Virus record (IMG/VR): IMGVR_UViG_3300049432_000151
Span: 1 to 64,000 of that record
DNA length: 64,000 bases
Source: a virus
Strand: one strand, 5' to 3'
Each line of letters starts with the position of its first letter. The first letter of the stretch is position 1. Below the pieces are notes generated by a model. The model had not been told where the DNA came from. It worked only from the letters and a program-made list of their open reading frames with translations, and did not search any database. Below, piece by piece: positions 17,697 through 55,969 of the stretch. Both the position numbers and the translations under genes were made by a program.

Positions 17697-18880
17697 AAGT
17701 CATCGCCGTCATGCTCGGCCTCATGCTGGCCGCGTCCACGCTGGCCGCTGAAGTGGCGTTCCGCGAGCCGGCGCTGCAAACCCCCAGCACGATCGATCTC
17801 GAAGCGCTGCAAGTGATCGACTTTGACTCGGACGGGGACCAGGACGTCTTGGCGATTGGCCGATGGCCGACTGGGTCCGGTCTTCTTCTGTACCAAAGCA
17901 ACAACGGTGTCTTGAACTGGTCTGCTCCGGCTCGGATGATCAATGTTCAGGGCCGAGTTACGCGGCTTCTGCCGGGCCGTGACGTCACTGGCGACGGCCG
18001 CATCGATCTCGTCGGAATCGTGGAGCAAGGCACGTTCTCGTTTCTTACTTCATGGCCGAACCCGGGAAACATCGGGTTCTCGTTCAGTTCGGGTTTCGAG
18101 CTGCCGACCGGCTACCGAGACGCAATAGTCACCGACATTACTGGGGATGAGGTTCCGGATGCGGTCGTGCTCACACCGCAGCAGGTGATTGTCCGAGCTG
18201 GTCTCCGCGACGGTGGTTATGCGGCCGAGGTGCGTTCCAACGTAACGACGAATGCGCGAGACTTCTTACCAACGGCGCTTGCCGCCGGCGACTTCAACGG
18301 CGACGGCAACGCCGACGTCGTCATCGCGTCGTCTGAGGCGCCAACGCAGAACGGATCCACGCGCGGAGACGTAACGATCTTGGCTGGCAGCCGCTCCGGC
18401 GCGCTCTCGCGGTTCGCCTCGTCGAATATCGCGGCCTCGCCGATCGCCGCGGCGAGTATGCGCAGCGCGCGAGGTCAAGTCGCGATTGTGACCTCTCATG
18501 CGCGCGGTATCGTTTCCACGGCGTTATTCACGACATCAGGGCTGATTTCGGCGAGCGGAACACACCACATGAATAGCTCTTCGGACTTGCGCCTGTTCGC
18601 TGTCGATGACGCGAATCTCGACGGGCAACCCGATGTCTGGTTGAGATCGCCCGACGCCGTTCTGGTCATTCCCGGCGCAAAGGATTTCCCAAGCGGCGAC
18701 GATCCTGTGGAGGTTCGCATTGGCGGCCTTGTGCTGACCGCTACCGCCGCGGACGTGAATGGGGACCGGCGCCCTGATCTCATCTTTGTAATCCGCGTCG
18801 GTTCTGTCGGCCGGGTTGCCGTCTATCTCAACACCTCGACCGTACCGGAACCGCCGCGCCGCAGAGCCATTCGGAAATGA
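17693..18880 (+). CDS. Secreted FG-GAP/VCBS repeat protein
   Basis: Signal peptide; DFDSDGDQDV, DVTGDGRIDL, DITGDEVPDA, DFNGDGNADV, DANLDGQPDV, DVNGDRRPDL; C-terminal PPRRRAIRK. Confidence 0.88.
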   Translation: MKVIAVMLGLMLAASTLAAEVAFREPALQTPSTIDLEALQVIDFDSDGDQDVLAIGRWPTGSGLLLYQSNNGVLNWSAPARMINVQGRVTRLLPGRDVTGDGRIDLVGIVEQGTFSFLTSWPNPGNIGFSFSSGFELPTGYRDAIVTDITGDEVPDAVVLTPQQVIVRAGLRDGGYAAEVRSNVTTNARDFLPTALAAGDFNGDGNADVVIASSEAPTQNGSTRGDVTILAGSRSGALSRFASSNIAASPIAAASMRSARGQVAIVTSHARGIVSTALFTTSGLISASGTHHMNSSSDLRLFAVDDANLDGQPDVWLRSPDAVLVIPGAKDFPSGDDPVEVRIGGLVLTATAADVNGDRRPDLIFVIRVGSVGRVAVYLNTSTVPEPPRRRAIRK

Positions 18881-39170: not shown

Positions 39171-40448
39171 ATGGCTACCAAAGATGTGACGCTCAATGAC
39201 GTTGCCAATTTCGTCTTCGAGCAGATGTTCAACGACCCGAAGCTCCGTGAGGTTCCGGAGAACGAGCGCGCGGCATACGTCGCCAAGCGCTTCAATGCTC
39301 TCGCCGAGGAAGTCGCTGAGGCTCGCGCCGAGGCGAAGGTCACCGGCATCCGCACGCAGATGACCGAGCTGCAGTCGGCGATGACCGAGATGCAGGAGCG
39401 CGCGACGCGCGCCGAGAAGTTCCGCGCCAACGACCACGGCTTCCACCGCGGCATCGATGGCAAGCTCCAGCCGAACGTCTCCCGCGAGACGGCGGAGACG
39501 CTCGTCACGATGATCCGCGCCATGAAGGACAAGGAGTTCGAAAAAGCACGCGCCGTTTCGAGCGGCGTGGGCGCTGAAGGCGGATTCCTCCTCCAGACCG
39601 ATGTCGCTGCCGACATCCTTCGCCTCGTCCCTGACACCGGTCTGTATCCGCAGATTGCGCGTCCGTGGCCGATGGGAACGAAGAAGGTCGACATCGGCAG
39701 CGTGCTCTCTCAGATGGGTGCGTACTGGCCCGAAGAGAACAACGCGATCACGCCGAGCTTCCCTGGCTTCGGAAAGGTCTCGCTCGAGGCGAAGTTGCTC
39801 GGCGCGCTGATCCCAGTTCCTCTGACACTCATCGAGGATTCCACCCCCGAGCTCGGCCAGCTCTTCGCTGATCTGATCCGGGAGTGCATCGCACTCGAGA
39901 TTGACCGCGTCGCCATCGTAGGCAAGTCGGCCGCGAACGGCGGAACGGATCCGTTTGACGGTCTGCTCAACTCCACGGGCATCAAGGTGAAGGTCATGGA
40001 CAATGGCCACACCTCGTTCAAGAACATCGGCTGGGAGTATCTGCAGGACCTGCAGGACACCGTGCCGGAAGGTGCTCGCGACGACAACTCGTACCTCATC
40101 AACCAGTCGGTGTTCAACTTCCTGCGCAAGCAGAAGGACGCCGACGGTCAGCCGATCTGGCAGCGTCCTGCTGACGGTGAGCCGGGCACGTTGTGCGGTA
40201 AGCCGTACTTCAAGACCGAGCGGATGCCGGCGTACAGCGCGGCCGCTCAGCCTTCCAAGCGCAGCGCGCTGTACGGCAACTGGAAGAAGTGGGCAATCTT
40301 CGGCAACCGCAAGGAGCTGACGATCGCCACCTCTGACGTTGCGGGTGACGCATTCAAGAACGTGCAGCTGATCCTGCGCGGAATCACGCGGGTCGGCTTT
40401 GCTTCGTTCGGGCCAGCGATCTCCACGCTCGAGACTGCGGCGAACTAG
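39171..40448 (+). CDS. Major capsid protein (HK97 fold, with N-terminal coiled-coil delta-like domain)
   Basis: EGGFLL, AYWPEE, KLLGALIPV..TLIEDS, LRKQKDADGQPIW, LYGNW. Confidence 0.93.
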   Translation: MATKDVTLNDVANFVFEQMFNDPKLREVPENERAAYVAKRFNALAEEVAEARAEAKVTGIRTQMTELQSAMTEMQERATRAEKFRANDHGFHRGIDGKLQPNVSRETAETLVTMIRAMKDKEFEKARAVSSGVGAEGGFLLQTDVAADILRLVPDTGLYPQIARPWPMGTKKVDIGSVLSQMGAYWPEENNAITPSFPGFGKVSLEAKLLGALIPVPLTLIEDSTPELGQLFADLIRECIALEIDRVAIVGKSAANGGTDPFDGLLNSTGIKVKVMDNGHTSFKNIGWEYLQDLQDTVPEGARDDNSYLINQSVFNFLRKQKDADGQPIWQRPADGEPGTLCGKPYFKTERMPAYSAAAQPSKRSALYGNWKKWAIFGNRKELTIATSDVAGDAFKNVQLILRGITRVGFASFGPAISTLETAAN

Positions 40449-40546
40449 TTCGCGTCAGCCTCCCCTCGTCTCTTCTCCCATCATCAACCATCTGATCGGT
40501 GCGGCGCGCTCCAGCCTGGGGCGCGTCGCACTCAGGAGACACGGCT

Positions 40547-41242
40547 ATGCCGTTCAACGAAAACAACGTGTTCTACCAGGACCCAGTCCTGCTGCCGGGC
40601 GCGCAGGTCACGCCTCGCATCGTCAACGCGGACGTCAGCCTTCCGGCGACACCGTTCGACTTTGCGGATGCTCAGACGCTCTTCGCGAATCTGAACATTC
40701 ACGAGTTCCTCGTCACCGCCCTCGCTGGCGCGAACAACGACCTCGCGTTCATCGCGCGGACGCCGGGCACCACGCCGACGGTTCGCGTAACGTTCACCGT
40801 CGCTGGCAACAACACCCCCCTCTCGATCGCAGTGGTCGGTGAGGACATCACCGTCAACGTCGCAACCGGCGCCGGTGGTGCTGCTACGTCGACGGCTGCG
40901 CAGGTGAAGGCGGCGATCGAAGCGCACGCTGCGGCGAGCGCTCTGGTCGTCGTCGAGCTCGCGCCGGCCAATGATGGCACCGGTGTCGTCACTGCCCTGG
41001 CTCAGACCCCGCTCGCTGGGCCCACGGGCACCACGCCGACGATGGACGTCAAACTCCAGCACGGCATCACCGCGACCACTCTCGCGGACCATTCCGCCTT
41101 CGCACAGAAGACCGCCGCGTCCGTCGAGTTCAAGACGTTCGCGAACGTCGCGTCGAAGGGTCAGTGGGTCCTCGACCGCGGCGCCGACGCTGACGAAGTG
41201 TTCGCCGTCAGCATCGTCGCGCAGTACCGCCCGAAAGCGTAA
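40547..41242 (+). CDS. Probable capsid decoration protein with an inserted beta domain
   Basis: Follows the capsid gene; insert NNDLAFIAR...ITVNVAT...TSTAAQVKAAI. Confidence 0.55.
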   Translation: MPFNENNVFYQDPVLLPGAQVTPRIVNADVSLPATPFDFADAQTLFANLNIHEFLVTALAGANNDLAFIARTPGTTPTVRVTFTVAGNNTPLSIAVVGEDITVNVATGAGGAATSTAAQVKAAIEAHAAASALVVVELAPANDGTGVVTALAQTPLAGPTGTTPTMDVKLQHGITATTLADHSAFAQKTAASVEFKTFANVASKGQWVLDRGADADEVFAVSIVAQYRPKA

Positions 41243-41275
41243 CCGCGCAACCCAACCATCATCAACGCATTCCGA

Positions 41276-41303
41276 GTGAGGGGCGGCTTCCGCCGCCTCT
41301 CAC
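41276..41303 (+). terminator. Strong hairpin after the decoration gene
   Basis: GTGAGGGGCGGC-TTCC-GCCGCCTCTCAC; no U tract. Confidence 0.4.
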
Positions 41304-41315
41304 GCTGGAGAATCG

Positions 41316-41714
41316 ATGCGATTCGAGATCACAACCGCGGTCCACTTCGGCTACATGCGGACGCCGGGTGTCTATGACGACATGACCGAAGCTGATGCGG
41401 CGAACCTGTCGGCACCGCGGGCAGGGCTGCCACACGGGTACGGGCGTGCCGTTGCTGAAGAGAACTCGCCAGTGGTGGCGCCCGTTGTCGCACCGCTTCA
41501 GCCGGCAGTCGAGGACACAAATGATGAAACCACCGCAGAGAAATCCGAGCCGCCCTCCAGCGGAACGGGATCGAATGATCCGGCAACAGGATCATCGAAC
41601 ACGGATCCGAAACAACCTGCCGAGTTCACCTGCCCCACCTGCAGCAAGTCCTTCACCGAGTCCGCAGACCCGGCAGTCTCCCTCTCCGGACACAGACGTT
41701 CGAAGAAACACTGA
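41316..41714 (+). CDS. Hypothetical protein with C-terminal C2H2-like finger
   Basis: FTCPTCSKSF...LSGHRRSKKH. Confidence 0.6.
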   Translation: MRFEITTAVHFGYMRTPGVYDDMTEADAANLSAPRAGLPHGYGRAVAEENSPVVAPVVAPLQPAVEDTNDETTAEKSEPPSSGTGSNDPATGSSNTDPKQPAEFTCPTCSKSFTESADPAVSLSGHRRSKKH

Positions 41715-41724
41715 GGAGTGACGC

Positions 41725-41898
41725 GTGCCAGGCGGCTACTCACACAGCAACGTCGAGGACTTCGAGCGGAACGAGGGTGATCGCAAGGCTTCGAACCTGC
41801 GGATCGCGTTGCTCGTGATGCTCTGGGACCTGCTGCTTCACCTCATCGACGTTCGATACGGGTCACTTTTCCGCGCGTTGTTTGAGTACAGGTTCTAA
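41725..41898 (+). CDS. 57-aa hydrophobic hypothetical protein
   Basis: GAGGAG SD, GTG start; manual translation. Confidence 0.45.
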   Translation: MPGGYSHSNVEDFERNEGDRKASNLRIALLVMLWDLLLHLIDVRYGSLFRALFEYRF

Positions 41899-41901
41899 CC
41901 G

Positions 41902-42204
41902 ATGGCGAAGAACGGGCCCGACCAGTACGACGTGATCATCACTAATCCGAGCGAGGTCATACCTCTCGGCGATGAATTGCCGATCAGGGGAACAGTTCTG
42001 ATCGTGGCTCGAGAGGAGAACGTCGGGCGGCCAAAGTTCGGCGTTGTCGGCGTGCTCTCTCCCGTGAGCTCCGGTAAGCGGCTGCGTCGAGAAGACGTCG
42101 TAACGCTTGACCATCCTGGCGGCATACGCCTCAGCCAGTACGGCATAACCGGTGGCAACGTCGGCGACGGTGTGACGATCATCCATGGAGGCTGGTCACT
42201 GTGA
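41902..42204 (+). CDS. Hypothetical protein
   Basis: In the operon; GTGA overlap with the next gene. Confidence 0.6.
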   Translation: MAKNGPDQYDVIITNPSEVIPLGDELPIRGTVLIVAREENVGRPKFGVVGVLSPVSSGKRLRREDVVTLDHPGGIRLSQYGITGGNVGDGVTIIHGGWSL

Positions 42205-43925
42205 AGTTACTTGCCTCACTGGTTGCCGTGTCGCTCCTTGCGGGACCGGTATTCGCGCAGAACCGCGAGGTCGACGCGAACATCTACGTCAACGGCCAGC
42301 CGGTGACCGCGCTGAACCCGTTGCCGATTACGGGCCTCGCCGGCGGTGGCGGCGGCGGTTCGGTGCAGCTGCAATTGAGGAGCGCGCTGAGCGTCTGGAC
42401 GGATCTCGGCTACTGCGCCGGCTGTCTCAACATGCCGATCCAAGGCACAGTTTCAATCACCGGATCCGTAGCGGTTACAGGAGGCCTCACCGACGCTCAG
42501 CTTCGGGCGAGCGGTGTAGCCGTGACCGGCACTTTCTGGCAGGCGACACAACCGGTGAGCGGCACGCTCGGCCGGTCGTGGACTCTTGCCAGCGGCACAG
42601 ACAGCGTCGCTATCTCAGGTTCGATCTCGAACACGTCGTTCAACGTCGGCAACTTCCCGTCCACATACGACACCAGCGATCGCGCCGCGCGTCTGCTGGG
42701 CATCGTGTACGGCGAACAGGGCCAGCTCGCGCAGCGCACGACGACGCGCGACCTGTTCATGCAACTGCGGACCGGAGGCGCTGAGTACGACGCACGGCAG
42801 ATCCGGACCATTACCGAAACTCTCGTCACCAAGGGCGCCGGAGCCGTCGTCGCCGAATCGTTGGCCGTCCGTTGCGTCAACGCTGCCGGCAACGCCTTTG
42901 AGTCGTGCGCAGGCGCAGGCGGTCCGGGCGGTGGAACCGTGGCGATCGACCAGACCGGAACAGCAAACGACGTCGAAGTCACGAACTCCTCGATCGCCGT
43001 CACGGGAACATTCTGGCAGGCTACCCAACCCGTGAGCGGCACCTTCTGGCAGGCGACGCAGCCTGTCAGCGGTCCTGTGACAGACGCGCAGCTCCGCGCG
43101 ACCGCGGTTCCGGTCTCCGGTACGTTCTGGCAAGCAACGCAACCAGTCAGCGGGCCGCTCACGGACGCGCAGTTGCGCGCGACGGCGGTGCCGGTCAGCG
43201 GCTTCCCGACGACCGCGGCGTCCACCGCTGTGGCGGTCCGGTGCGTGAACACAGCCGGCAACGCGTTCGAAGCGTGCGGCGGCTCGAGCTCGGGCGGAGG
43301 TGCGACGGCAACAGCAGCCGCGCCGACGTATCTGGAAGGTGCAGCCGCAGCTCTTTCGGTTGACCTCAGTGGGGGCTTGCGCGTCGAGACGAAGTACGGT
43401 GGCGCTCACAGTTCAGTGACGCCAGCCGACGCAGCGATGACGGGCGGCTACGCCGAGGCAGAGGCAGCAGCGCTAGACTCGAGCGGCGTGGTCGAAGGCG
43501 ACATCACGCGCAACAAATCGGACATTGAAGGCCGGCAGTTCATGCGGACCGATCATCCGAACAGCTTCTTCTGTGCGATGACGTCGACGGCTGTCGCGGC
43601 CACGGTCATCACCGGGTGCGTCGGTGCCGGCGGCGCAACGATGGCGTCACCTGGAGCTGGGCTGCGGCGCTACATCACGGACATTTCATACAACTCCTCG
43701 ATCATCTCCACGACGGCGAACTTTATGCAGCTCAGCTACGGCACCGGCGCTACCTGCGCGACCGGCAACGTGCCGTTCTATCGTGGCAGCAACTCGGTGG
43801 CGTTTCTCACTGTCACAGAGCCGATCGTCACTCCGATCCGCACCGGCGTGGCCACAGACGTTTGCTTCATTCACCCTGGCGCCGGCACGAGGCAGATCAA
43901 CATCCGCGGCTACGTCGCGCCGTAA
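42201..43925 (+). CDS. Signal-peptide fibre/decoration-like protein with GTFWQATQPVSG repeats
   Basis: MKLLASLVAVSLLAGPVFA-Q; 4x GTFWQATQPVSG, 3x TDAQLRA, 2x VRCVN.AGNAFE.C. Confidence 0.75.
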   Translation: MKLLASLVAVSLLAGPVFAQNREVDANIYVNGQPVTALNPLPITGLAGGGGGGSVQLQLRSALSVWTDLGYCAGCLNMPIQGTVSITGSVAVTGGLTDAQLRASGVAVTGTFWQATQPVSGTLGRSWTLASGTDSVAISGSISNTSFNVGNFPSTYDTSDRAARLLGIVYGEQGQLAQRTTTRDLFMQLRTGGAEYDARQIRTITETLVTKGAGAVVAESLAVRCVNAAGNAFESCAGAGGPGGGTVAIDQTGTANDVEVTNSSIAVTGTFWQATQPVSGTFWQATQPVSGPVTDAQLRATAVPVSGTFWQATQPVSGPLTDAQLRATAVPVSGFPTTAASTAVAVRCVNTAGNAFEACGGSSSGGGATATAAAPTYLEGAAAALSVDLSGGLRVETKYGGAHSSVTPADAAMTGGYAEAEAAALDSSGVVEGDITRNKSDIEGRQFMRTDHPNSFFCAMTSTAVAATVITGCVGAGGATMASPGAGLRRYITDISYNSSIISTTANFMQLSYGTGATCATGNVPFYRGSNSVAFLTVTEPIVTPIRTGVATDVCFIHPGAGTRQINIRGYVAP

Positions 43926-43949
43926 TCCACCAACCAACAAAGGAGCAAC

Positions 43950-44405
43950 ATGAAACGAGCACTCGTCCTCGTCCTGGCACTGGTGTGCCTCTTCACCCTC
44001 ACGTCGTGCGTCGGCAATCCTCCACCGCATTCGGGAGCGACACTCGACGCGCCGGAGCGGATCCTGCTCCCTGCAGCGAAGTCGGCCTGCGCCATCTACA
44101 CGAAAGCGCGGCCGCAGGTTGCCGCATTCAAAGCGTGGGCGACTGTGAACTGGAACGCGACGGTTCCAGGGACGAACACTCCGATCATTGCGGCCGAGAT
44201 GAAAGCGACACTCCTCGAGTTCGACGCATACGTGCCCGCGCTGAAGATCGTAGGCAACGCGTCGTGCTCGGCCAGCCTCGTCGAATACGAGTCAGCACTC
44301 TCTCCTCTTCCATCTGAGCGGCATTTCGATTGGGACCGCGTGCTCAACATCACCGCGAAGGTCGCCGGCGTCGCACTCGACCTCCATCAGCAGGGGGCGT
44401 TCTAG
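43950..44405 (+). CDS. Putative lipoprotein
   Basis: MKRALVLVLALVCLFTLTS-C lipobox-like. Confidence 0.7.
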   Translation: MKRALVLVLALVCLFTLTSCVGNPPPHSGATLDAPERILLPAAKSACAIYTKARPQVAAFKAWATVNWNATVPGTNTPIIAAEMKATLLEFDAYVPALKIVGNASCSASLVEYESALSPLPSERHFDWDRVLNITAKVAGVALDLHQQGAF

Positions 44406-44407
44406 CC

Positions 44408-44758
44408 ATGGCGCTAAAGACAGGTGATAAGGCCACACCGCCTGCCGTGAGCGCGAGCCCAGAATCCGTTGAGACGGCAACGGCAACTGCACCAACTCCC
44501 GGACCGAAGCCGGATGGAATCGTCATCAATCCCGCTCGCGAGAGCCGGAAGCTCACCATCCTGACGATTGAGGAAGGTCCCGAGGTCCTCGCCGAGACGA
44601 CCGTCGACGGTGACGCATCCGCAGTGATTGGCCGTGTACTCGAGGCGGTCAAGAAGCACGGGGTCACCGTCATCCGCGTCTGGCAGCACGGCGAGGGGAA
44701 GCTGATCGCCGAAGCGCTTCGGCAGGTCGCGGGGCTCAAAGTTCTCGAGCTGAAGTGA
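44408..44758 (+). CDS. Hypothetical protein
   Basis: ATG 44408, in the operon. Confidence 0.55.
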   Translation: MALKTGDKATPPAVSASPESVETATATAPTPGPKPDGIVINPARESRKLTILTIEEGPEVLAETTVDGDASAVIGRVLEAVKKHGVTVIRVWQHGEGKLIAEALRQVAGLKVLELK

Positions 44759-44766
44759 GGTACCCC

Positions 44767-46194
44767 ATGAAACGCACTCTCTCAGCGGCGATCGTCGCGG
44801 CAACGCTCGTGGTCTATCCAGCCTGCGCGCAGTTCGACTTTCGCGGCATCGGCACGCACACGATGACCTATCAGGTCTTCAAGAACGCTCCAACGTTGCC
44901 ATCGGTCTCAAAGCTCGGCGAGACGCTCATCGTCATGGACCCGTTGTGCAACTGCCTGAAGATCTCGATGAACGGCACGGCGTTCCAAACGCTCGTTCAG
45001 ACACCGGGCGCGGGCGGTACCGTTCTCAGTGTCTTCGGCCGTGGCGGCGCGGTCGTGGCGAACTTCGGCGACTACACGGGTGCGCAGGTCCAGGCGACGC
45101 CATTCAACACGATTGCCGGTACGAACGTTCAGACGCAGCTGCAGCAGATCGACGCACGGATCACCGCGTCCGCGATCACGACCGTGTTCGGCCGGGCCGG
45201 AGCTGTTGCTGGCCTCGCTGGCGACTACACCGCCGTAAAGATCACCTCGACCGCTTCAGGCTCGATCGGATCCACCGACGTGCAGGCAGCGATTGCTGAG
45301 ATCGCGAGTGAGAAGTTGGACGGCACCGTCGCCAACACCTATACCGCGCTCCAGACCTACAACTCACCAACCGCTGCGGTGAGGATCAAGCCGTCGTCGG
45401 CTCCGGGCGCAAACGCGAAGCTCTTCGAGCTGCGGTCTAACCTCGATGCGTCACTCGCATGGTGGGATGCCGAAGGCGACGAGACCGTCAACAGCAGCTA
45501 CCTCACTTCCGGATCGATCGACACACTCACCGCCCTGACTCTCAAGACTGCGGGCGTCACGCGCGCTACGATCAATTCGACTGGGGCTACGTTCGCAGGC
45601 GTACTGGCGGCGCCGCAGGCAGTCTTTAATTACACGAACGGCGGAGCAGTCATCGGAACCACGATCGTGGTGACGAACGCTCTGGGTAGTAACGGCATCG
45701 GCGTGGACTCTACGGCCACTGCAACTGGCGCAATCGGCTTGAAGGGCACGGCCACCAACACGTCCGGCATCGGTGTCAGCGGTACCTGTTCGGCCGCTGC
45801 GAACTGTATCGGCGTGCGTGCCGAAACTACCAGCACAAACGTGAACGCGACCGCCATCACCGCGGCGGCGGCGCGCGGAACGACTGTGTTCGCTCAAGCG
45901 AATGACGCCCTGAACACCAAGTCGACAATCGTCGCTCGTGACTTCGGTCAGGCAGCGGACACCAAGATGATCGATGCGCAGAGCTCGGGCGGCACTTCGG
46001 TGGGCTGGATTGATCGCGAGGGTGACGCCGGGTTCAAGACGATCACCATCACGGCCACGGCGTTCGCCTCACTTGGGACGCCTACGAACGGGTCGATCTA
46101 CTACTGCAACGACTGCACGATCGCAAACCCGTGTGCGGGCAGCGGGACCGGTGCACTCGCGAAACGCTTGAACGGCGTGTGGGTCTGCAACTGA
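44767..46194 (+). CDS. Signal-peptide fibre-like protein
   Basis: MKRTLSAAIVAATLVVYPACA-Q; 2x VFGR.GAV....GDYT; Cys-rich C-terminus. Confidence 0.75.
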   Translation: MKRTLSAAIVAATLVVYPACAQFDFRGIGTHTMTYQVFKNAPTLPSVSKLGETLIVMDPLCNCLKISMNGTAFQTLVQTPGAGGTVLSVFGRGGAVVANFGDYTGAQVQATPFNTIAGTNVQTQLQQIDARITASAITTVFGRAGAVAGLAGDYTAVKITSTASGSIGSTDVQAAIAEIASEKLDGTVANTYTALQTYNSPTAAVRIKPSSAPGANAKLFELRSNLDASLAWWDAEGDETVNSSYLTSGSIDTLTALTLKTAGVTRATINSTGATFAGVLAAPQAVFNYTNGGAVIGTTIVVTNALGSNGIGVDSTATATGAIGLKGTATNTSGIGVSGTCSAAANCIGVRAETTSTNVNATAITAAAARGTTVFAQANDALNTKSTIVARDFGQAADTKMIDAQSSGGTSVGWIDREGDAGFKTITITATAFASLGTPTNGSIYYCNDCTIANPCAGSGTGALAKRLNGVWVCN

Positions 46195-46244
46195 TCAGGC
46201 CCGTCCCCCGCTCATTCCCACAGATCGACCGTCAAGGAGTTCTG

Positions 46245-49200
46245 ATGATGAAGAGACTCGCAATCGCGGTTCTGCTGATGCTGACGCTGCCCGCGTCCGC
46301 ACAGTACAACCGCCCTTCAACGTCGACATCGACGTACATCTGGGCGTTCAAGCCGACCGCTGTGGCGCCTCCTGTCGCCGAGACTGGCGTGGGTAAGATC
46401 TATCTCGATCCGACCTGCGGCTGCCTGAAGTGGAGTTACAGCGGGTCCGTCTGGGCAAACCTCTACACGCCTGGGCTTGTCTACGTCGCCACCTTCAACG
46501 GCCGGACGCAGGCGGTCGTCCCAGCAAACGGGGACTACACCGCGACACAGGTGACAAACACGCCGGCCGGGGCGGTAGCCGGCACGACGGTGCAGAGCGC
46601 ACTGAATGAACTTGACACTGAGAAGGCGCCGCTCGCCTCGCCTACCTTCACGGGCACCGTTACGGTGCCCTCGCCGTTCACCCTGGGCGCCACGTCGATC
46701 ACGGTCACCGGGACGGAGATCAATCGACTCGCCGGGGTCGCGTCGAACGTTCAGACACAGATCGATGCGAAAGCGCCTCTCGCGTCGCCGGCATTGACCG
46801 GAACGCCATCCGCACCGACAGCAGCGGTGGACACGAACACGACGCAGATCGCAACGACTGCGTACGTCGTCGGTCAGGCGTACCTGAAAAGTGCGACTGC
46901 AGCGTCGACATACGAGACGCAGGCGGCACATGCGGCCGACGTCTCTACGATCAACGCCGCCATCGCGCTGAAGGCGCCACTCGCATCTCCGACGTTCACA
47001 GGAACGGTCACAGCTCCGTCAATCACCGGCGGCATCACGCCCGGCACCGCTTCGACGTCCACGACAATCGCAAAGAGTGGCATCGGCAGCAGCGTCGCCG
47101 TTCAGGTGCAAGCCTCAGCCGCAGCTGACCGAGCGCTGATGTCGCTGTCAGCTGGCGACGGCACGACGTCCGGACGATTCTCCTTCGTTGACTACATTGC
47201 CAACGAGACGACACCTCAGAGGTGGCGCGCGGGTATGAATGGGACGAAGGACTTTGTCGTCCGTGATGAAACGGGGACGCGGACCCCGATCAGCATCGCG
47301 CAGTCAGACGGGACGATCATTCTCACCGCCCCGAGTGCGGCGGCTGTCTTTATGAACACGGGCTACGCGCGGCTGAGGCATGCCGCGGCTGGAAACACGA
47401 CGTTCGACGTTCAATCCAACGGAGCAGCAAACAACGCGTCGATCGGCATCATGAGCGGCGATGGGACAACGTCTAGCCGCTTCGCTGTTGTCAGCTTCGC
47501 TTCCTCTGAGACGGTTCCTCAGTCTTGGGCAACGGGCATGTATTCCAGCAAGAACTGGGTCGTCAGGGACGACACGGCTGGGCGCACACCAATCTCCATC
47601 GCTCAGACCGACGGCCTCGTCTCAATCGCGAACGGCTTGAGCGTCACCTCCGCAAGCGGCAACACCTTCGTAGCGATCACAACGGTCGCCGATGCGGTTG
47701 CTCGAGTCCACGCCAATTCGGCGACTCACGCGGCGCAGGTTGACGTCGTTTCAGGTAACGCAACGACCTCATCTCGAAACTCGTTCATTCGTATTCGGTC
47801 GAGTGAAACAGCGACGCAAGAGTGGCGCATCGGAATGGAGGCTAGCAAGAACTTCTCAATCAACGACACGACGGCGGGTAAGTCGCGCATCGTTTTGCGG
47901 CAGGACGTGCCGGGCCTCGTCGGTATCAATGGCTCACCGTCCGCTGGCACGCTCGATGTTCGACCCGCGGACGGCTCGGTTGCAGCGTCAGTGGCAGCGA
48001 CGGCGCCAAACACAACCGGTGCTGCAACAGTTCGGGTGTCCAGCGGAGACGGTACAACGTCCGCGCGGGCTGCGTACCTCGACGTGGTCTCAAGCGAAAC
48101 GTCGACTCAGCGATGGATCGCGGGCATGAACGGCACTAAGAACTTCGTCGTGACCGACATTACCGGCTCTCGAACGCCGATCAGCGTTGCTCAGACCGAC
48201 GGTGGCGTCACCTTTTCTGCTCGCATCGGAGTCGGCGTCGCGGCGGCGACCGGGTTGGAGCGCATTAAAGGCTACGGCACTGATGCTTCCGAATACCTGA
48301 CCATCGAAAACGCAAGCACGACAGGTGCTTCGATCATGAACTCCGTGGCCGGGAACGGAACGACGTCGAGTCGCAACTCCTACCTCCGCCTTTTTTCGAA
48401 TGAGACGATTACGCAAGAGTGGCGAGCTGGGATGCAGGGCGACAAGACCTACAGAATTCGCAACCAGACCGCATCCCGAGATCAGATGGTGTTTCGCGAC
48501 GATCTCGCGTACGTAGGTATCAATGCCACACCGTCCTATCACCTCGATGTTCAGGACGCGACAGCGAGTGCAACAGTTCGGGTCCGCTCTTCTGCCGCTG
48601 CCACCAATGCGATCTTTCGCGCTGAAGGCGGAAGTGGAACGAGCGTAGCTGGCGTCATTCTCTCGGCGGGCGACGGCACCACCTCTAACCGTAACGCGTA
48701 CACGCAATTCGTAGCCAACGAAACGTCCTCGCAAACGTGGAACGCGGGAATGGTTGGTTCAAAAGATTGGCGCATCTCGGATGCAACGGGTGCGCGCGTT
48801 CCGCTCAGCATCGCGCAGACCGACGGCCTCGTCACGTTCGCTAATGGCCTCGACGCCAGCACGGGTGATCAGCGGGTGAAGGGCTACAAGTTGCAGGCTT
48901 TCACACTGCGCATCGTGAACACGGCCGGGGTGATTCAGCACTCGATCTTCGCCACGTCCACGGCGTTCGCGACCACGATCACTGGAGCCACAGCGACGCT
49001 AGCGAACACACCGACCGTCGACGCGGCGACGCCGTTCGTGTCAGGCGGCGGGCTGATGTCGGGAGCGACTGAGAACTTCGTGTTCGACACAGCTACCGCA
49101 CAGGGAGTCGAGATTATCGGGGTCGCAAGCGTGGAGTTCTATTCCGCTGGCGCGACTGGCACAGCAGCGCCGCCGCTTCCACTCTTTCACTTGCGCAACA

Positions 49201-49337
49201 TCAACGTAAACGGCACCACGATCACGCGACCCGCAATCGGGTTTTACAACTCACTCTCGGCGGCGTGGAATCTCACGACGGCGAACCTCGCAGCCGGCAA
49301 GGAAATCCGGGTCAAATTCCTCGGCTACATCAAATGA
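46245..49337 (+). CDS. Signal-peptide tail-fibre-like protein with six ~100-aa repeats
   Basis: MMKRLAIAVLLMLTLPASA-Q; 3x KAPLASP; 6x G(D/N)xTTSxR...ET..Q.W..GM. Confidence 0.8.
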   Translation: MMKRLAIAVLLMLTLPASAQYNRPSTSTSTYIWAFKPTAVAPPVAETGVGKIYLDPTCGCLKWSYSGSVWANLYTPGLVYVATFNGRTQAVVPANGDYTATQVTNTPAGAVAGTTVQSALNELDTEKAPLASPTFTGTVTVPSPFTLGATSITVTGTEINRLAGVASNVQTQIDAKAPLASPALTGTPSAPTAAVDTNTTQIATTAYVVGQAYLKSATAASTYETQAAHAADVSTINAAIALKAPLASPTFTGTVTAPSITGGITPGTASTSTTIAKSGIGSSVAVQVQASAAADRALMSLSAGDGTTSGRFSFVDYIANETTPQRWRAGMNGTKDFVVRDETGTRTPISIAQSDGTIILTAPSAAAVFMNTGYARLRHAAAGNTTFDVQSNGAANNASIGIMSGDGTTSSRFAVVSFASSETVPQSWATGMYSSKNWVVRDDTAGRTPISIAQTDGLVSIANGLSVTSASGNTFVAITTVADAVARVHANSATHAAQVDVVSGNATTSSRNSFIRIRSSETATQEWRIGMEASKNFSINDTTAGKSRIVLRQDVPGLVGINGSPSAGTLDVRPADGSVAASVAATAPNTTGAATVRVSSGDGTTSARAAYLDVVSSETSTQRWIAGMNGTKNFVVTDITGSRTPISVAQTDGGVTFSARIGVGVAAATGLERIKGYGTDASEYLTIENASTTGASIMNSVAGNGTTSSRNSYLRLFSNETITQEWRAGMQGDKTYRIRNQTASRDQMVFRDDLAYVGINATPSYHLDVQDATASATVRVRSSAAATNAIFRAEGGSGTSVAGVILSAGDGTTSNRNAYTQFVANETSSQTWNAGMVGSKDWRISDATGARVPLSIAQTDGLVTFANGLDASTGDQRVKGYKLQAFTLRIVNTAGVIQHSIFATSTAFATTITGATATLANTPTVDAATPFVSGGGLMSGATENFVFDTATAQGVEIIGVASVEFYSAGATGTAAPPLPLFHLRNINVNGTTITRPAIGFYNSLSAAWNLTTANLAAGKEIRVKFLGYIK

Positions 49338-49747
49338 GCATGCGTAACCGCATCGCCTCTGTCGTCGTGACCATTGGCCTCATCGCGGCCACGCTGGGCA
49401 ACGCGCTACTCCTCGTGAGCTGCGCGAGCGAGCGGACGGTGCGACGCGAGTCCGCGTACCTCCTCGCGGCGACGACCGCTGACATGGAAACGACGTTCGC
49501 CGTAGTACGCCGCGGAGGCGCCGAGGCCAACCCGGTCATGAAGCCCTTTGTAGACCGCGGCAGGCCTGCAACCTACGCGCTGCAGCTCGCGATCGACGGA
49601 GCACTCATCTGGTACGCGATGCGACTGAAAGAACGTGGCGACCCGCGATGGCACTGGCCACTCCGGATCGTCGCATTCGGCCATCTCGGCGCAGCAACTT
49701 GGAACGCGACACAGATCCGCAAAGCGGAGAAGGATAAAGATCGATGA
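49334..49747 (+). CDS. DUF5658-like membrane protein / lipoprotein
   Basis: LLVS-C; ADMETT...GGAEANPVM. Confidence 0.6.
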   Translation: MSMRNRIASVVVTIGLIAATLGNALLLVSCASERTVRRESAYLLAATTADMETTFAVVRRGGAEANPVMKPFVDRGRPATYALQLAIDGALIWYAMRLKERGDPRWHWPLRIVAFGHLGAATWNATQIRKAEKDKDR

Positions 49748-50175
49748 AACGATTCACTCTCGCAGCACTCCTCCTGCTCGTCTCGCTCTCAGCATTCGGC
49801 GACGGCAAGGTCGTCACGCCTGCGCCGGAGGATCCGGTCGAGGCATGGCGCTTCCTCGACGTTCGCAACGCGATCGCTGATCCGGCCGCGCCTGTGGCCA
49901 TCATCGAGGTGGGCTACTTCACAAAGTCGGGTAAGTTTCATCACGCCTCGACGGTGAACCTGCAGGGCCCGGCGTATCACCAGTTCCTCGGCGCGATCGT
50001 CACCGTGGCCGATGCCGCCTACGAAGCGACCCTGACCATGATGGTGACCAAGGCCGACGGAACGACGGTGACCGTCCCCGACACTCAGTCGATCTTCCGC
50101 TTCCGCATCGCGAAATACCTTCTCGCTATCGGCGAGCTGCCCGCCAGCGTCACCGCCGAGAAGCTCCCGAAGTAA
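49744..50175 (+). CDS. Secreted hypothetical protein
   Basis: MKRFTLAALLLLVSLSAFG signal peptide. Confidence 0.7.
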   Translation: MKRFTLAALLLLVSLSAFGDGKVVTPAPEDPVEAWRFLDVRNAIADPAAPVAIIEVGYFTKSGKFHHASTVNLQGPAYHQFLGAIVTVADAAYEATLTMMVTKADGTTVTVPDTQSIFRFRIAKYLLAIGELPASVTAEKLPK

Positions 50176-50184
50176 GGAACTGAC

Positions 50185-50748
50185 ATGCTCGTCACTCCCG
50201 AAGAGGCGGCCTCCTTCATCGGAGGCGAAGCGAACGCCCAAGATCCGACTCTCGTGCGCCTGACGGCAGCCGTCTGCTCCGCCGTACAGAAATCGTGTGG
50301 CCGCTTCTTCGAGTACGCCGAGAGAACCGACTACGTGCGCGGCTTCGGGCTCGACTACGTCTTTCTCACGGACGCGCCGATCGCCGAGATTGTCGAGGTG
50401 CGCATTGATCCGACCGGCTTGTTCGCCGGCGGGACCGTGCCGATCGATCAATTCTTCTTCCGTCCGGGAGAGGATGACCGCCGGCTTTGGTGGCGAAACG
50501 GTAAGTTTCCCGAAGCCGACATCGTAGCGCGCGTCACTCGGCGCGCGGGGTATCAGGTAACCGGCGACACCCAGCCACAGCTGCCCGCCGACATCAAGAC
50601 GGTCATCCTCGATGAGATCGCGGCGCGGATACAGCGTGGTTCGGCCGAGGTGATGAAGTCGGAGACGATCGGCAGCTACAGCTACACCAGATTTGACGGT
50701 GCGTTCAATCCTCAGAACCTCGCGTGGCTGCGCCCTTACCGGCTATGA
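50185..50748 (+). CDS. Head-tail adaptor (gp6/gp15-like)
   Basis: LVTPEEA..FI, CGRFF, AGY...LPADIK, SETIGSYSY, LRPYR. Confidence 0.85.
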   Translation: MLVTPEEAASFIGGEANAQDPTLVRLTAAVCSAVQKSCGRFFEYAERTDYVRGFGLDYVFLTDAPIAEIVEVRIDPTGLFAGGTVPIDQFFFRPGEDDRRLWWRNGKFPEADIVARVTRRAGYQVTGDTQPQLPADIKTVILDEIAARIQRGSAEVMKSETIGSYSYTRFDGAFNPQNLAWLRPYRL

Positions 50749-51065
50749 ACAATCTCCTTCGGCACCGCTGCGCGATCGAACGACGGGACGCAGTCCAGGC
50801 TAGCGCCTCCGGCGAAACCATTCAGAACTGGCAGACGATCGCGGATGGCGTTCCGTGCCTACTCGATGCGAAGGGCGGCTCCGCGCGGCAAGGCGAGTAC
50901 GGTCGTACGACGCCCGTCAACTTCGTCGGCTTCTTCCGGTGGATGACCGATCTCCAGGTGGACGATCGCATCGTGGTGAACGATCAACGCTACGCCGTCA
51001 CCTTTCTCGCGGACCGTAGCGGGCACCACATCGAGGCGGACCTAGCGCTCGTAATCGCACCGTGA
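50745..51065 (+). CDS. Head closure protein
   Basis: HRCAIER...WQTIA..VPC, DRIVV...Y.V. Confidence 0.75.
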   Translation: MNNLLRHRCAIERRDAVQASASGETIQNWQTIADGVPCLLDAKGGSARQGEYGRTTPVNFVGFFRWMTDLQVDDRIVVNDQRYAVTFLADRSGHHIEADLALVIAP

Positions 51066-51472
51066 GCGTCGAGTGGGATCCGAAATTTGATGCGCAGCTC
51101 GATGACGTCATCCGGAAGAAGCTCACGAACATCGTCCGTCGAATAGCGCGAAAGGTTGACGACCTGTTTCGATTGCCGAAGTCGGGCCGCTTCTACGGTA
51201 AGCATCAAGCCTCCGCACCAGGCGAGGCTCCGGGCATTGAGACGGCCGCGCTGCGAAAAAGCGTGACAACGTCCGTACAGAAAGTGGGCGACTCCTGGGC
51301 GGGAGACGTCGGCCCCTCACTGCAATCAGGTCGGGCGGAGATCGCCAGCATGCTGGAGTTCGGAACGTCGAACATCGAGCCCCGACCAGCCTGGCGGCCG
51401 GCACTTGAAGCGGTCATCGCTGAAGAAGAGCGAGTTGGCAGCAACACAGTCACAATCACAACGGAGGCCTGA
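51062..51472 (+). CDS. HK97 gp10-like tail component
   Basis: HQASAPGEAP..ET..LR.S, LEFGTSNIEPRP.WRPA. Confidence 0.85.
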   Translation: MSVEWDPKFDAQLDDVIRKKLTNIVRRIARKVDDLFRLPKSGRFYGKHQASAPGEAPGIETAALRKSVTTSVQKVGDSWAGDVGPSLQSGRAEIASMLEFGTSNIEPRPAWRPALEAVIAEEERVGSNTVTITTEA

Positions 51473-51885
51473 TGCAGAGTGTCAAGCAGAGTCTCCGCGC
51501 GCGAGCGATCGCGGACGCGACGCTCGTTGCCGCGTTGGGTGGGCAGTACTTCTATCACCGCAATCCCGCAACGTCGCTCAGTCAGCTGCTGACCGATGCG
51601 ACCAAAGCGGTCGTGACGTACTGGCTCGTCGTCGGAACGCCGGATGAGGAACTGCCGAGGTCCGACGAGTTGTATCAGATGGACATTTGGTCGAAGACCG
51701 CAGACAAGAACGACGCGGTCGCGGAGCTGCTCGTTGCACGCTTCGATCAGAAGCCGCTCGCTATGACAGGCCGCCGGCTCGGCCGCATCGTGCACGTCGC
51801 TCCAGTGCTCGAGTTCTATGAGCCCGAGACCGAGCTTCACCACAAAGCGATTCAGTTTCGAATCATCAGCTACGCCGCATCGTAA
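51472..51885 (+). CDS. Tail terminator protein
   Basis: LVAALGG, YQMDIWS; position before the tail tube gene. Confidence 0.7.
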   Translation: MQSVKQSLRARAIADATLVAALGGQYFYHRNPATSLSQLLTDATKAVVTYWLVVGTPDEELPRSDELYQMDIWSKTADKNDAVAELLVARFDQKPLAMTGRRLGRIVHVAPVLEFYEPETELHHKAIQFRIISYAAS

Positions 51886-55627: not shown

Positions 55628-55969
55628 ATGCGATTCTCACAGCAGGCCGCGCAGGCTCTCACCAGCCTGGTCGGGATGAAGTACGCCCGGATGAATTGCT
55701 GGCGTGTCGTCCAGTTCGCGTACAACGTGCAAGGCGTAAAGCTGCCCGACTACTGGTCAGCGCTTTCGCTGTTCCGAACGCTCGGTCCTACTGAGGAGCG
55801 TCAGCCGTTCGACGTGGCTGTCATTCGGAACCACTCGATCGTCACCAACCACGTCGGCCTCTACCTCGGCGACGGTCAGATCCTGCACTCCATGGAAGAC
55901 ACAGGCGTCGTCTGTCAGCCGCTCTCGCGCATCGAGCGAGTGGTCGGCTTCCTCCGCCTCCACACCTGA
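55628..55969 (+). CDS. NlpC/P60 tail protein (gpK C-terminal-like)
   Basis: NCWRVV..Y, HVGLYLGDGQILH. Confidence 0.88.
   Translation: MRFSQQAAQALTSLVGMKYARMNCWRVVQFAYNVQGVKLPDYWSALSLFRTLGPTEERQPFDVAVIRNHSIVTNHVGLYLGDGQILHSMEDTGVVCQPLSRIERVVGFLRLHT

What the first reader, a model, noticed from the sequence alone, without database searches (positions are those of the whole stretch)
42201..50175. 8-kb cluster of signal-peptide-bearing fibre-like proteins inside the head-neck operon
Seen: between capsid and head-tail adaptor, six of seven consecutive genes start with Sec or lipoprotein-type signals. Three are large with phage fibre hallmarks (KAPLASPTFTGT, VFGR.GAV...GDYT, GTFWQATQPVS) and paired cysteines. 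No conventional cytoplasmic side-fibre gene follows gpJ in the window. Known: tailed-phage structural proteins normally fold and assemble in the cytoplasm without signal peptides. Inference: an undescribed pathway in which fibres are exported, disulfide-folded in the periplasm and attached to virions at lysis with lipoprotein helpers, or a phage-encoded cell-surface appendage.
Basis: partly seen in the sequence, partly recalled or inferred. Interest (0 to 1): 0.85.

Follow-up and report, generated by a model that had tools for sequence, protein, structure and literature searches.

The report
Phage fibre proteins carrying export signals
An uncultivated soil phage puts ordinary bacterial secretion signals and paired cysteines on three fibre proteins encoded between its capsid and neck genes, so they probably fold outside the cytoplasm where tailed-phage particles are built.

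Summary
Seven co-oriented, tightly packed late genes lie between the capsid/decoration genes and the head-tail connector. Six begin with Sec-type or lipoprotein-type leaders, each preceded by a ribosome-binding site.

Three are fibre proteins:
- g1 has a repeat shaft and a jelly-roll knob predicted to trimerise.
- g4 and g5 are paralogs with tail-fibre repeats.

The leaders are conserved:
- 7 of 7 proteins sharing the g4/g5 N-terminal module have one.
- So do 86 of 120 proteins sharing g4's near-invariant cysteine-rich C-terminal tag.
- So do 6 of the 9 relatives covering at least 80% of g1.

Within these families, leader-bearing members carry about three times more cysteine, mostly in even numbers, and glutamine near the predicted cleavage site. 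Export and oxidative folding are therefore well supported, at about 0.8.

What happens next is inference. I rate docking onto particles at lysis at 0.38 and a role off the particle at 0.35. The "lipoprotein helper" idea has no support, because g2 and g7 are orphans.

This scan has found leader-bearing phage fibres many times on other DNA. My literature searches found no paper describing the route.

The parts
42201..43925 (+). g1, 574 aa. Sec-type leader (aa 1-20), extended shaft with four GTFWQATQPVS units and two VRCVN..C hairpins, and a C-terminal jelly-roll knob (aa about 445-574).
   Evidence: sequence and motifs; 2563 relatives, all unnamed; knob pLDDT 83-96, the rest poor; best Z 7.8, a generic jelly-roll; trimer score 0.71 against best control 0.00.
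43950..44405 (+). g2, 151 aa, predicted lipoprotein (lipobox LTSC).
   Evidence: No Pfam or NCBIfam family. One weak PHROG of unknown function.
44408..44758 (+). g3, 116 aa. The only gene of the block without a leader; no hydrophobic segment.
   Evidence: No family hit.
44767..46194 (+). g4, 475 aa. Sec-type leader, about 60-aa N-module with CxC, two FGR..GAV..GDYT units, a body of unknown fold, and a C-terminal cysteine-rich tag.
   Evidence: paralog of g5, 27% identity over 468 columns, E 4e-26. P0122 is 73% identical through leader, N-module and stalk, then diverges; leader helix and a three-strand N-module at pLDDT 84-88.
46063..46191 (+). Last 43 residues of g4: a four-cysteine C-terminal tag that is nearly invariant across otherwise unrelated proteins.
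   Evidence: at the very C-terminus of 115 of 120 listed hits; 21 copies, mean 72% amino-acid identity but only 36% identity at third codon positions of conserved residues. No Pfam, PHROG or NCBIfam model.
46245..49337 (+). g5, 1030 aa. Sec-type leader, N-module, tail-fibre repeat region (aa about 85-265), six repeats of about 100 aa (aa about 270-900), and a C-terminal knob.
   Evidence: PHROG tail-fibre families, best E 1.8e-12, repeat region only. P1/P7 S-type and P2-type fibres, 14-18% of the query; six repeats. P0242 and P0243 share repeats and knob, and both have leaders.
49334..49747 (+). g6, 137 aa. N-terminal hydrophobic segment ending in LVSC (lipoprotein or signal-anchor), with a DUF5658 match.
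   Evidence: PF18902, E 1.2e-5, 26.4 bits against cut-off 25.2; one strong hydrophobic peak only.
49744..50175 (+). g7, 143 aa. Sec-type leader; orphan.
   Evidence: only itself found.
39171..42204 (+). Upstream flank: HK97-type major capsid protein (39171-40448), a 231-247-aa virion structural or decoration-like protein (40499/40547-41242), and two small genes (41316-41714, 41902-42204). The last overlaps the g1 start by 4 nt.
   Evidence: PF05065, E 2.5e-32. (phrog_8757)..
50185..51885 (+). Downstream flank: a 187-aa gene at the connector position (no family hit), then head-completion (PF05521/DUF3599), a 136-aa gene, and tail-completion gp17-like.
55969..61308 (+). J-like central tail fibre, 1779 aa, with no leader. 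It is followed only by small ORFs.
   Evidence: PF24801, PF13550, fn3..

Best explanation
The block encodes three homotrimeric fibre proteins (g1, g4, g5) and four small proteins. They are transcribed and translated with the late structural genes.

Six of the seven are sent through the host Sec translocon. g1, g4, g5 and g7 would be cut by signal peptidase I, three of them leaving an N-terminal glutamine. g2, and perhaps g6, would take the lipoprotein branch. The fibres then fold with disulfide bonds in the periplasm of a two-membrane host, apart from the cytoplasm where heads and tails are built. I rate this part at about 0.8. It rests on sequence evidence and is shown by no experiment.

The next step is inferred. 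The mature fibres keep the same N-terminal module and the same bodies as leaderless fibres of other uncultivated phages, and they sit at the same place in the genome. They are therefore most likely accessory host-binding fibres. They could meet finished particles only when the holin breaches the inner membrane, and would dock on them during lysis.
For: **Export and oxidative folding**
- Canonical leaders sit behind ribosome-binding sites.
- Leaders are conserved in 7 of 7 proteins with the g4/g5 N-module, in 86 of 120 tag-family proteins, and in 6 of the 9 hits covering at least 80% of g1. Two more of those nine have hydrophobic N-termini without a basic residue.
- In the g1 family, leader-bearing members have 1.07 Cys per 100 aa against 0.38 (p 4e-6). 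Their counts are 14 even and 6 odd, against 31 even and 44 odd. The g5 family shows the same direction.
- [AGS]Q occurs in residues 15-36 in 16 of 23 and 54 of 86 leader-bearing members, against 13 of 97 and 7 of 34 of the others.

**Late, structural context**
- Start and stop codons overlap or nearly abut. There is no internal promoter or terminator signal and no shift in composition.

**Fibre nature**
-.
- g1 knob trimer score is 0.71 against a best control of 0.00. That mark was reached by 20 of 30 solved pairs and 1 of 23 single chains. The runs agree in at least 83% of contacts and partner pLDDT is at least 80.

**Same role as virion fibres**
- 71 of 80 g1-family loci in viral contigs are leaderless. 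One of these leaderless types has an N-domain matching a PHROG 'virion structural protein'.
- Leaderless fibres L109 and L124 begin directly with the g4/g5-type N-module. In L109 the gene lies just after TerL, portal and a putative capsid gene.
- Tips are swapped behind a conserved N-part, as in receptor-binding proteins.
- The arrangement recurs in unrelated phage contigs:
  - L120: six of seven leader-bearing genes right after the capsid gene.
  - L085: three between portal and capsid.
  - L052: a 1004-aa leader-bearing g1 relative two genes after the portal.
  - L038: four leader-flagged genes, including a g1-family member, after an unannotated 814-aa ORF that gave no PHROG hit.
  -.
Against: - No trained signal-peptide predictor and no experiment is behind the leader calls. 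My rule has false positives.
- My searches found no tailed phage reported to export a virion part. A later check of a similar report in this scan priced the bold reading at about 10 in 100.
- Where g1 relatives are leaderless they carry a separate N-terminal domain, which the leader-bearing ones lack. That could mean loss of the particle-binding part.
- The 1779-aa J-like protein may suffice for adsorption.
- No virion-side docking protein is identified.
- The small proteins are orphans.
- 4 of 16 tag proteins in viral contigs have no leader, so export is not obligatory for the tag.
- The host is unknown. A two-membrane host is inferred only from lambda-type tail-tip genes and lipoprotein signals.
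Confidence: 0.38

Rival explanations
1. The fibres are exported but never become part of the particle. They act in the envelope of the infected cell, or as free lectins or enzymes released at lysis. For example, they could bind or cut receptor polysaccharide as it is assembled at the periplasmic face. That would keep progeny from being lost on debris and keep the cell from being superinfected.
For: - All the export evidence above applies.
- Leader-bearing g1 relatives lack the N-domain of the leaderless ones.
- Many tag-family proteins carry pectate-lyase or beta-helix domains (PF12708, PF13229).
- The tag is under strong purifying selection, yet no conserved phage-encoded partner lies within 10 kb in 24 loci. 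That fits a host ligand.
- Exported non-virion proteins inside late operons are known (lambda Lom, T5 Llp; recalled, not from a call).
Against: - 8 kb and three large mosaic fibres is a heavy investment for a role off the particle.
- The mature N-module is conserved, and it equals the N-terminus of leaderless fibres at the same genomic position.
- g1, g4 and g5 have no enzyme domain.
- A periplasmic fibre cannot reach surface receptors without a route across the outer membrane, and none is encoded here.
Confidence: 0.35
2. The N-terminal segments are not cleaved export signals. The fibres stay in, or at the inner face of, the cytoplasmic membrane as signal-anchored or merely hydrophobic-tailed proteins, and join the particle in the usual way.
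For: - The leader calls are heuristic only.
- g6 has an over-long hydrophobic stretch.
- Matrishin et al. 2023 (passages read) suggest that the signal peptides predicted on Porphyromonas phage capsid proteins are cleaved by the prohead protease. A predicted leader need not mean export.
Against: - The c-regions are canonical, with a proline and small residues at -3 and -1, and two lipoboxes are present.
- Cysteine enrichment and even parity are seen only in leader-bearing family members.
- Glutamine is enriched at the predicted cut.
Confidence: 0.12
3. A prophage-borne cell-surface appendage of the lysogen, analogous to the Bdellovibrio MAT fibres. It would be expressed outside the lytic cycle as a lysogenic-conversion trait.
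For: - It has the same layout as MAT fibres: leader, conserved N-domain, trimeric shaft, swapped tips.
- The contig's right end holds host-like genes, so the element may be a prophage.
Against: - The block has no promoter or terminator of its own and no compositional difference.
- It is translationally coupled to structural genes on both sides.
- No outer-membrane transport or anchor component is recognisable.
Confidence: 0.08

Closest known systems
Bdellovibrio bacteriovorus mosaic adhesive trimer (MAT) fibres (Caulton et al. 2024, PMC10769870; passages read)
   Same: A signal peptide is followed at once by a conserved N-terminal domain. The shaft is trimeric and phage-fibre-like. C-terminal tips are swapped, and some are TNF-like with disulphides.
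   Different: MAT fibres are encoded by a predatory cell and shown by experiment to be on its surface. Their N-domain is about 130 aa, against about 60 here. 13 of 21 carry an S74 domain, and none does here. No sequence link was found: PDB phmmer was blank, and MAT N-domains were not available to compare.
Leaderless side tail fibres of cultured phages (P1/P7 S, P2-type, coliphage tail fibres)
   Same: They share the KAPLASPTFTGT-type repeat region with g5, at 33-49% identity over 14-18% of g5 and by PHROG tail-fibre families.
   Different: They have no leader, and by established knowledge they assemble in the cytoplasm. They are usually encoded after the tail-tip genes, not between capsid and neck genes.
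Leaderless members of the same families in uncultivated phages (L015, L109, L124 types)
   Same: They have the same GTFWQATQPVS shaft or the same N-module plus FGR..GAV..GDYT unit. In L109 the gene lies just after the putative capsid gene.
   Different: They have no leader and about a third of the cysteine content. The L015 type has an extra N-domain matching a virion structural PHROG.
Exported non-virion proteins of phage late regions (lambda Lom and Bor, T5 Llp, PBSX XepA)
   Same: They are phage-encoded, leader-bearing, envelope-located proteins. The XepA entry title ('PBSX exported protein') and its beta-sandwich appeared among the g1 knob matches at Z 6.3, which is within the noise band.
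   Different: They are small and are not fibres. Their roles (exclusion, serum resistance, lysis-linked) are recalled from memory, not from a call. No homology was shown.
Leader-bearing genes of Porphyromonas gingivalis phages obeying the Bacteroidetes Q-rule (Matrishin et al. 2023, PMC10367356; passages read)
   Same: They are phage genes with signal peptides whose cleavage exposes glutamine. The authors read this as adaptation to the host's secretion system.
   Different: In that paper these are five genes of unknown function, plus capsid and spanin genes. The passages I read do not mention fibres. The host phylum here is unknown, and GC is 62%.
phi29 gp8.5 head fibre (recalled, not from a call)
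   Same: A trimeric fibre gene lies directly after the capsid gene.
   Different: It has no leader and is attached to the capsid in the cytoplasm. No similarity was tested.

Membership tests
Sec / signal peptidase I substrates | Basic n-region, uncharged hydrophobic core of 7-15 residues, and small residues at -3 and -1 | tested here: met
   g1, g4, g5 and g7 by inspection and by my own rule. Not a trained predictor.
Sec / signal peptidase I substrates | Cleavage and translocation shown | not testable with these tools
   Needs N-terminal mass spectrometry, PhoA/BlaM fusions and fractionation.
Bacterial lipoproteins (signal peptidase II) | Lipobox [LVI][ASTVI][GAS]C at the end of a leader | tested here: met
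   g2 has LTSC at residues 17-20. g6 has LVSC, but after a 21-residue hydrophobic stretch, so g6 is inconclusive.
Phage tail fibre (PHROG 454, 7032, 2631, 8713) | Profile match | tested here: met
   g5 only, in the repeat region, with E from 1.8e-12 to 3.5e-5. g4 is linked to g5 by BLASTP, E 4e-26.
Phage tail fibre (PHROG / Pfam) | Profile match for g1 | tested here: not met
   g1 has no PHROG, Pfam or NCBIfam family. The fibre reading of g1 rests on architecture, the knob fold and the predicted trimer.
Bdellovibrio MAT fibres | Signal peptide directly followed by a conserved N-domain, with variable tips | tested here: met
   7 of 7 N-module proteins have leaders, and tips differ.
Bdellovibrio MAT fibres | Homology of the N-domain (about 130 aa) to MAT N-domains | not testable with these tools
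   No MAT N-domain sequence or structure was at hand. PDB phmmer was blank.
Bdellovibrio MAT fibres | S74 chaperone-protease domain (subfamily) | tested here: not met
   No PF13884 hit.
Moron / lysogenic-conversion cassette | Own promoter and terminator, and deviating composition | tested here: not met
   These are consensus scans only.
C1q/TNF-like trimeric jelly-roll knob | Fold match clearly above background | tested here: inconclusive
   Best Z is 7.8 (rmsd 2.8 A, 95 aligned). C1q and TNF rows score Z 6.3-6.8. The tool's stated noise band is 7-8.

The most novel reading that the evidence does not exclude
Two-compartment assembly of a tailed phage. Heads and tails are built in the cytoplasm. 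The host-recognition fibres are exported by Sec, disulfide-bonded (and possibly N-terminally cyclised at glutamine) in the periplasm, and snap onto finished particles in the seconds between holin triggering and cell rupture. The near-invariant 43-residue cysteine tag would then be a shared distal or docking module of a large, undescribed class of exported soil-phage fibres.
Probability: 0.3. Interest if true: 0.9.

Novelty: new variant of a known kind. Interest (0 to 1): 0.68.

Why it matters
Textbook assembly of tailed phages is wholly cytoplasmic. If receptor-binding fibres of many soil phages are routed through the periplasm, several things change:
- How such phages are annotated: leader-bearing late genes are now often dismissed as morons.
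- How their fibres must be expressed for structural or host-range work: periplasmic expression with disulfides.
- What limits their host range: dependence on host Sec, Dsb, signal peptidase and perhaps glutaminyl cyclase.

If the fibres never join the particle, they would be a new class of phage-made envelope or released proteins derived from receptor-binding proteins.

Either way, two large unnamed families are defined here. The g1 shaft family has more than 2500 proteins. The four-cysteine C-terminal tag family has at least 115 proteins. Both are testable by expression and mass spectrometry.

Tried and rejected
- **Family libraries.** Pfam, PHROG and NCBIfam gave nothing for g1, g2 (one weak PHROG), g3, g4 and g7.
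- **PDB sequence search.** It was blank for g1 and g5. For g4 there was one chance-level row (E 0.91).
- **g4 fold search.** Best Z 3.4 on a poor model (mean pLDDT 56.7). No conclusion.
- **ESM Atlas.**
  - g4: hyaluronidase- and Mtd_N-like leads, all under 0.9.
  - g1: unnamed viral clusters at 0.92.
- **Close relatives of the phage.** The capsid protein found none in viral contigs. g4 and g5 as single queries found none there either.
- **N-module alignment A1.** It found one weak locus in genome contigs (a Peribacteria MAG, L081, not followed up) and none in metagenome contigs. The second metagenome scan that was allowed was not used.
- **Host identity.** Not obtained. No tRNA in the window. 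Cluster look-up gave no names or accessions.
- **Conserved helper or docking partner.** All-against-all BLAST of neighbours in 24 tag loci found none. This covered only 10 kb on each side.
- **Synteny with this phage.** tblastn of the late proteins against all fetched loci gave only TerL-level matches.
- **Expression.** One run holds the block, and it is the probable source sample.
- **Literature.**
  - (signal peptide with tail fibre, tailspike, periplasm, secreted) listed no paper on exported fibres of tailed phages.
  - (four motif strings) found no paper.
  - Only listings were seen for those searches. The two papers cited elsewhere were read as passages only. Supplementary files were not opened and could hold relevant tables, for example the Porphyromonas phage gene lists.
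- **Rejected ideas.**
  - Recent horizontal spread or gene conversion as the reason for tag conservation: synonymous sites are scrambled.
  - Mis-called starts: ribosome-binding sites are present and leaders are conserved.
  - A Tat signal: no twin arginine.
- **Not run.** Complex prediction was not used on fibre-helper pairs, because nothing but adjacency suggested they bind.

Full report
**What is there.**

The window is the first 64 kb of an 85,049-bp contig held as a virus record from soil. Its late operon runs rightward in this order:
- large terminase;
- portal fused to a Mu-F-like domain;
- protease/scaffold with a 2H phosphoesterase;
- HK97-type capsid protein (39171-40448);
- a decoration-like virion protein (PHROG 8757) and two small genes;
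- the block in question;
- a connector-position gene (no family hit), head-completion, tail-completion, tube and tape-measure genes;
- lambda-type tail-tip genes, including an NlpC/P60 K-like protein and a 1779-aa J-like protein.

After J come only small ORFs of at most 225 aa.

**The observation.**

Seven genes fill 42201-50175 with gaps of 50 nt or less, or with overlapping stop and start codons. Six have N-termini with a basic start, an uncharged hydrophobic core and either a small-x-small site or a lipobox:
- g1, g4 and g5 end in VFA, ACA and ASA followed by Q.
- g7 ends in SAFG.
- g2 has LTSC.
- g6 has LVSC after an unusually long hydrophobic stretch.

Shine-Dalgarno-like sites precede the leader starts of g1, g2, g4, g5 and g7, and g6 overlaps the g5 stop. 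There is no promoter-like site on the coding strand. Terminator-like sites are no more frequent than in shuffles (9 against 9.6), and composition does not shift. A run of six in seven arose in 0.7% of shuffles of my crude flags over the contig. Cysteines are paired as described: g1 has five close pairs, mature g4 has eight cysteines, and g5 has a CxC.

**The three large proteins are fibres.**

- g5 matches tail-fibre PHROGs and the constant part of P1/P7 S-type and P2-type fibres, but only over its repeat region. The rest is six repeats of about 100 residues and a terminal knob.
- g4 is a paralog of g5: 27% identity over 468 alignment columns, E 4e-26.
- g1 belongs to a very large unnamed family. 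It has 2563 proteins at E of 0.001 or better among the 8000 candidates scored and 419 relatives in viral contigs. Only one weak match turned up in 50,697 cultured-phage records.
- The g1 model is confident only for the last 130 residues or so, which form a jelly-roll. The best structural matches are viral protrusions, phage cement and turret proteins, C1q and TNF. None rises above the aligner's noise band.
- Three copies of residues 400-574 of g1 were predicted to form a trimer. The score was 0.71 against a best control of 0.00. That mark was reached by 20 of 30 solved pairs and 1 of 23 single chains. The runs agree in at least 83% of contacts and partner pLDDT is at least 80. This supports a trimer but does not show one.

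**The leaders are part of the families, not accidents.**

- The leader plus the ~60-residue N-module of g4 and g5 recurs in P0122, P0243, P0266, P0330 and P0356. That makes 7 of 7 with a leader.
- P0122 is 73% identical to g4 through leader, N-module and stalk, and then carries a different distal part. P0243 keeps g5's leader, N-module and knob. This is the mosaic pattern of receptor-binding proteins.
- Of the 9 hits that cover at least 80% of g1, 6 pass my leader rule, 2 have hydrophobic N-termini without a basic residue, and 1 does not pass.
- Across all listed g1 hits only 23 of 120 pass, and in viral contigs only 9 of 80 loci do. The others have soluble N-terminal domains, one type of which matches a 'virion structural protein' PHROG.
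- The same fibre families therefore exist in leaderless and leader-bearing forms.

**Two independent signs that the leaders work.**

- Cysteine content. In the g1 family, leader-bearing members have 1.07 cysteines per 100 residues against 0.38 (Mann-Whitney p 4e-6). Their counts are mostly even (14 even, 6 odd, 2 with none). The others have 31 even, 44 odd and 22 with none. The g5 family shows the same direction with few cases (p 0.04).
- Glutamine at the cut. A small residue followed by glutamine lies in residues 15-36 of 16 of 23 and 54 of 86 leader-bearing members, against 13 of 97 and 7 of 34 of the rest. A glutamine at +1 of signal peptidase I substrates is described as a Bacteroidetes trait, and was noted on Porphyromonas phage genes of unknown function (Matrishin et al. 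2023, passages read). The host here is unknown, and 62% GC would be unusual for that phylum (recalled). I draw no host assignment from it.

**A by-product: a C-terminal tag.**

- The last 43 residues of g4 (46063-46191) hold four cysteines. They are nearly invariant at the very C-terminus of 115 of 120 listed hits, whose bodies are otherwise unrelated. Some of those bodies carry pectate-lyase or beta-helix domains.
- 86 of those 120 pass the leader rule.
- In 21 DNA copies, amino-acid identity averages 72%. Third codon positions of conserved residues agree only 36% of the time. The conservation is therefore selection on the peptide, not recent transfer.
- In viral contigs, 12 of 16 tag ORFs that my gene caller recovered have leaders, against 59 of 482 ORFs overall. 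Four do not.
- No conserved partner gene lies near the tag genes.
- No family library and no paper I could search holds the tag.

**The arrangement recurs.**

- L085: a 157-aa, a 666-aa (tagged) and a 715-aa leader-bearing gene lie between the portal and capsid genes.
- L052: a 1004-aa leader-bearing g1 relative lies two genes after the portal.
- L038: four leader-flagged genes, including a g1-family member, follow an 814-aa ORF that gave no PHROG hit.
- L084 and L091: a tagged leader-bearing gene follows an ORF that groups by BLAST with the L085 portal, and a g1 relative follows a few genes later.
- L120: six of seven genes right after the capsid gene carry leaders, among them 1386-aa and 762-aa proteins.
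- L109 and L124: leaderless fibres begin directly with the g4/g5-type N-module. In L109 the gene lies after TerL, portal and a putative capsid gene.

**What it most likely is.**

Export and oxidative folding of these fibres is the reading that explains all the following together: the leaders and their conservation, the lipoboxes next door, the cysteine pattern and the glutamine. I put it near 0.8.

The fate of the fibres is open. For docking on particles at lysis:
- the place in the structural operon;
- the coupling to structural genes;
- the receptor-binding-protein style of mosaicism;
- the fact that the mature chains look like ordinary leaderless fibres found at the same genomic position.

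Against docking:
- I found no precedent.
- No docking protein is identified.
- g1-type relatives have lost a separate N-domain.
- The large J protein may suffice for adsorption.

A role off the particle, such as binding or cutting receptor polymers in the periplasm or acting as free proteins after lysis, is nearly as likely. A lysogen surface appendage and non-functional leaders are less likely. The small proteins g2, g3, g6 and g7 have no relatives, so a helper role is a guess.

**Relation to earlier work of this scan and to print.**

This scan has flagged leader-bearing phage fibres on many other genomes. 764 notes hold the search words, and eight were shown. One was checked later and priced at 80 in 100 for what was seen and 10 in 100 for the bold reading. 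Those are unchecked notes and not evidence, but they tempered my odds and gave me the Matrishin paper.

The closest published system I could read is the Bdellovibrio MAT fibre family. It has the same leader, conserved N-domain, trimeric shaft and swapped-tip layout, but it is cell-encoded. My searches listed no paper describing export of tailed-phage fibres.

Noticed in passing
window 46063-46191 (end of g4); loci L082-L105: A 43-residue, four-cysteine C-terminal tag is nearly invariant at the protein level across at least 115 otherwise unrelated, mostly leader-bearing proteins. Synonymous sites are scrambled. It is in no family library.
   Followed up: partly
L120:9388-19100: A second, unrelated 48.7-kb phage contig has six of seven leader-bearing genes (110, 1386, 762, 133, 124 and 102 aa, plus one leaderless 602-aa gene) directly after its capsid gene.
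   Followed up: partly
contig 65388-67007, minus strand (beyond the window; L106:1388-3007): A 539-aa leader-bearing protein (ASA then Q) has a long Ala/Thr/Glu-rich, probably helical middle. Its C-terminal part is rich in alternating aromatic and glycine residues and looks like an outer-membrane barrel. No Pfam family.
   Followed up: no
contig 78703-85037 (beyond the window; L106, L107): Host-like genes: a response-regulator diguanylate cyclase and an M13 peptidase with a lipoprotein signal. The record may therefore be a prophage with a host flank. A CHAP plus PG-binding lysin lies at 67246-68091 on the minus strand.
   Followed up: partly
window 17693-18880, plus strand: A leader-bearing 396-aa protein in the early region has several D.D/N.DG..D-type loops. 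It looks like FG-GAP/VCBS-type repeats by eye only.
   Followed up: no
contig 68605-69312, minus strand (beyond the window): A 235-aa leader-bearing protein has a very cysteine-rich C-terminal 50 residues.
   Followed up: no
window 44408-44758 (g3): This is the only leaderless gene of the block. Another first-stage note reads it as a dead terminase-nuclease-like protein. I found no family match and did not test that reading.
   Followed up: no
L054:26-6571, L068:50-5761, L076:1533-8921: In three other phage contigs, leader-bearing g1 relatives lie 0.6-3.8 kb (one to five ORFs) downstream of a giant 1900-2460-aa protein.
   Followed up: no
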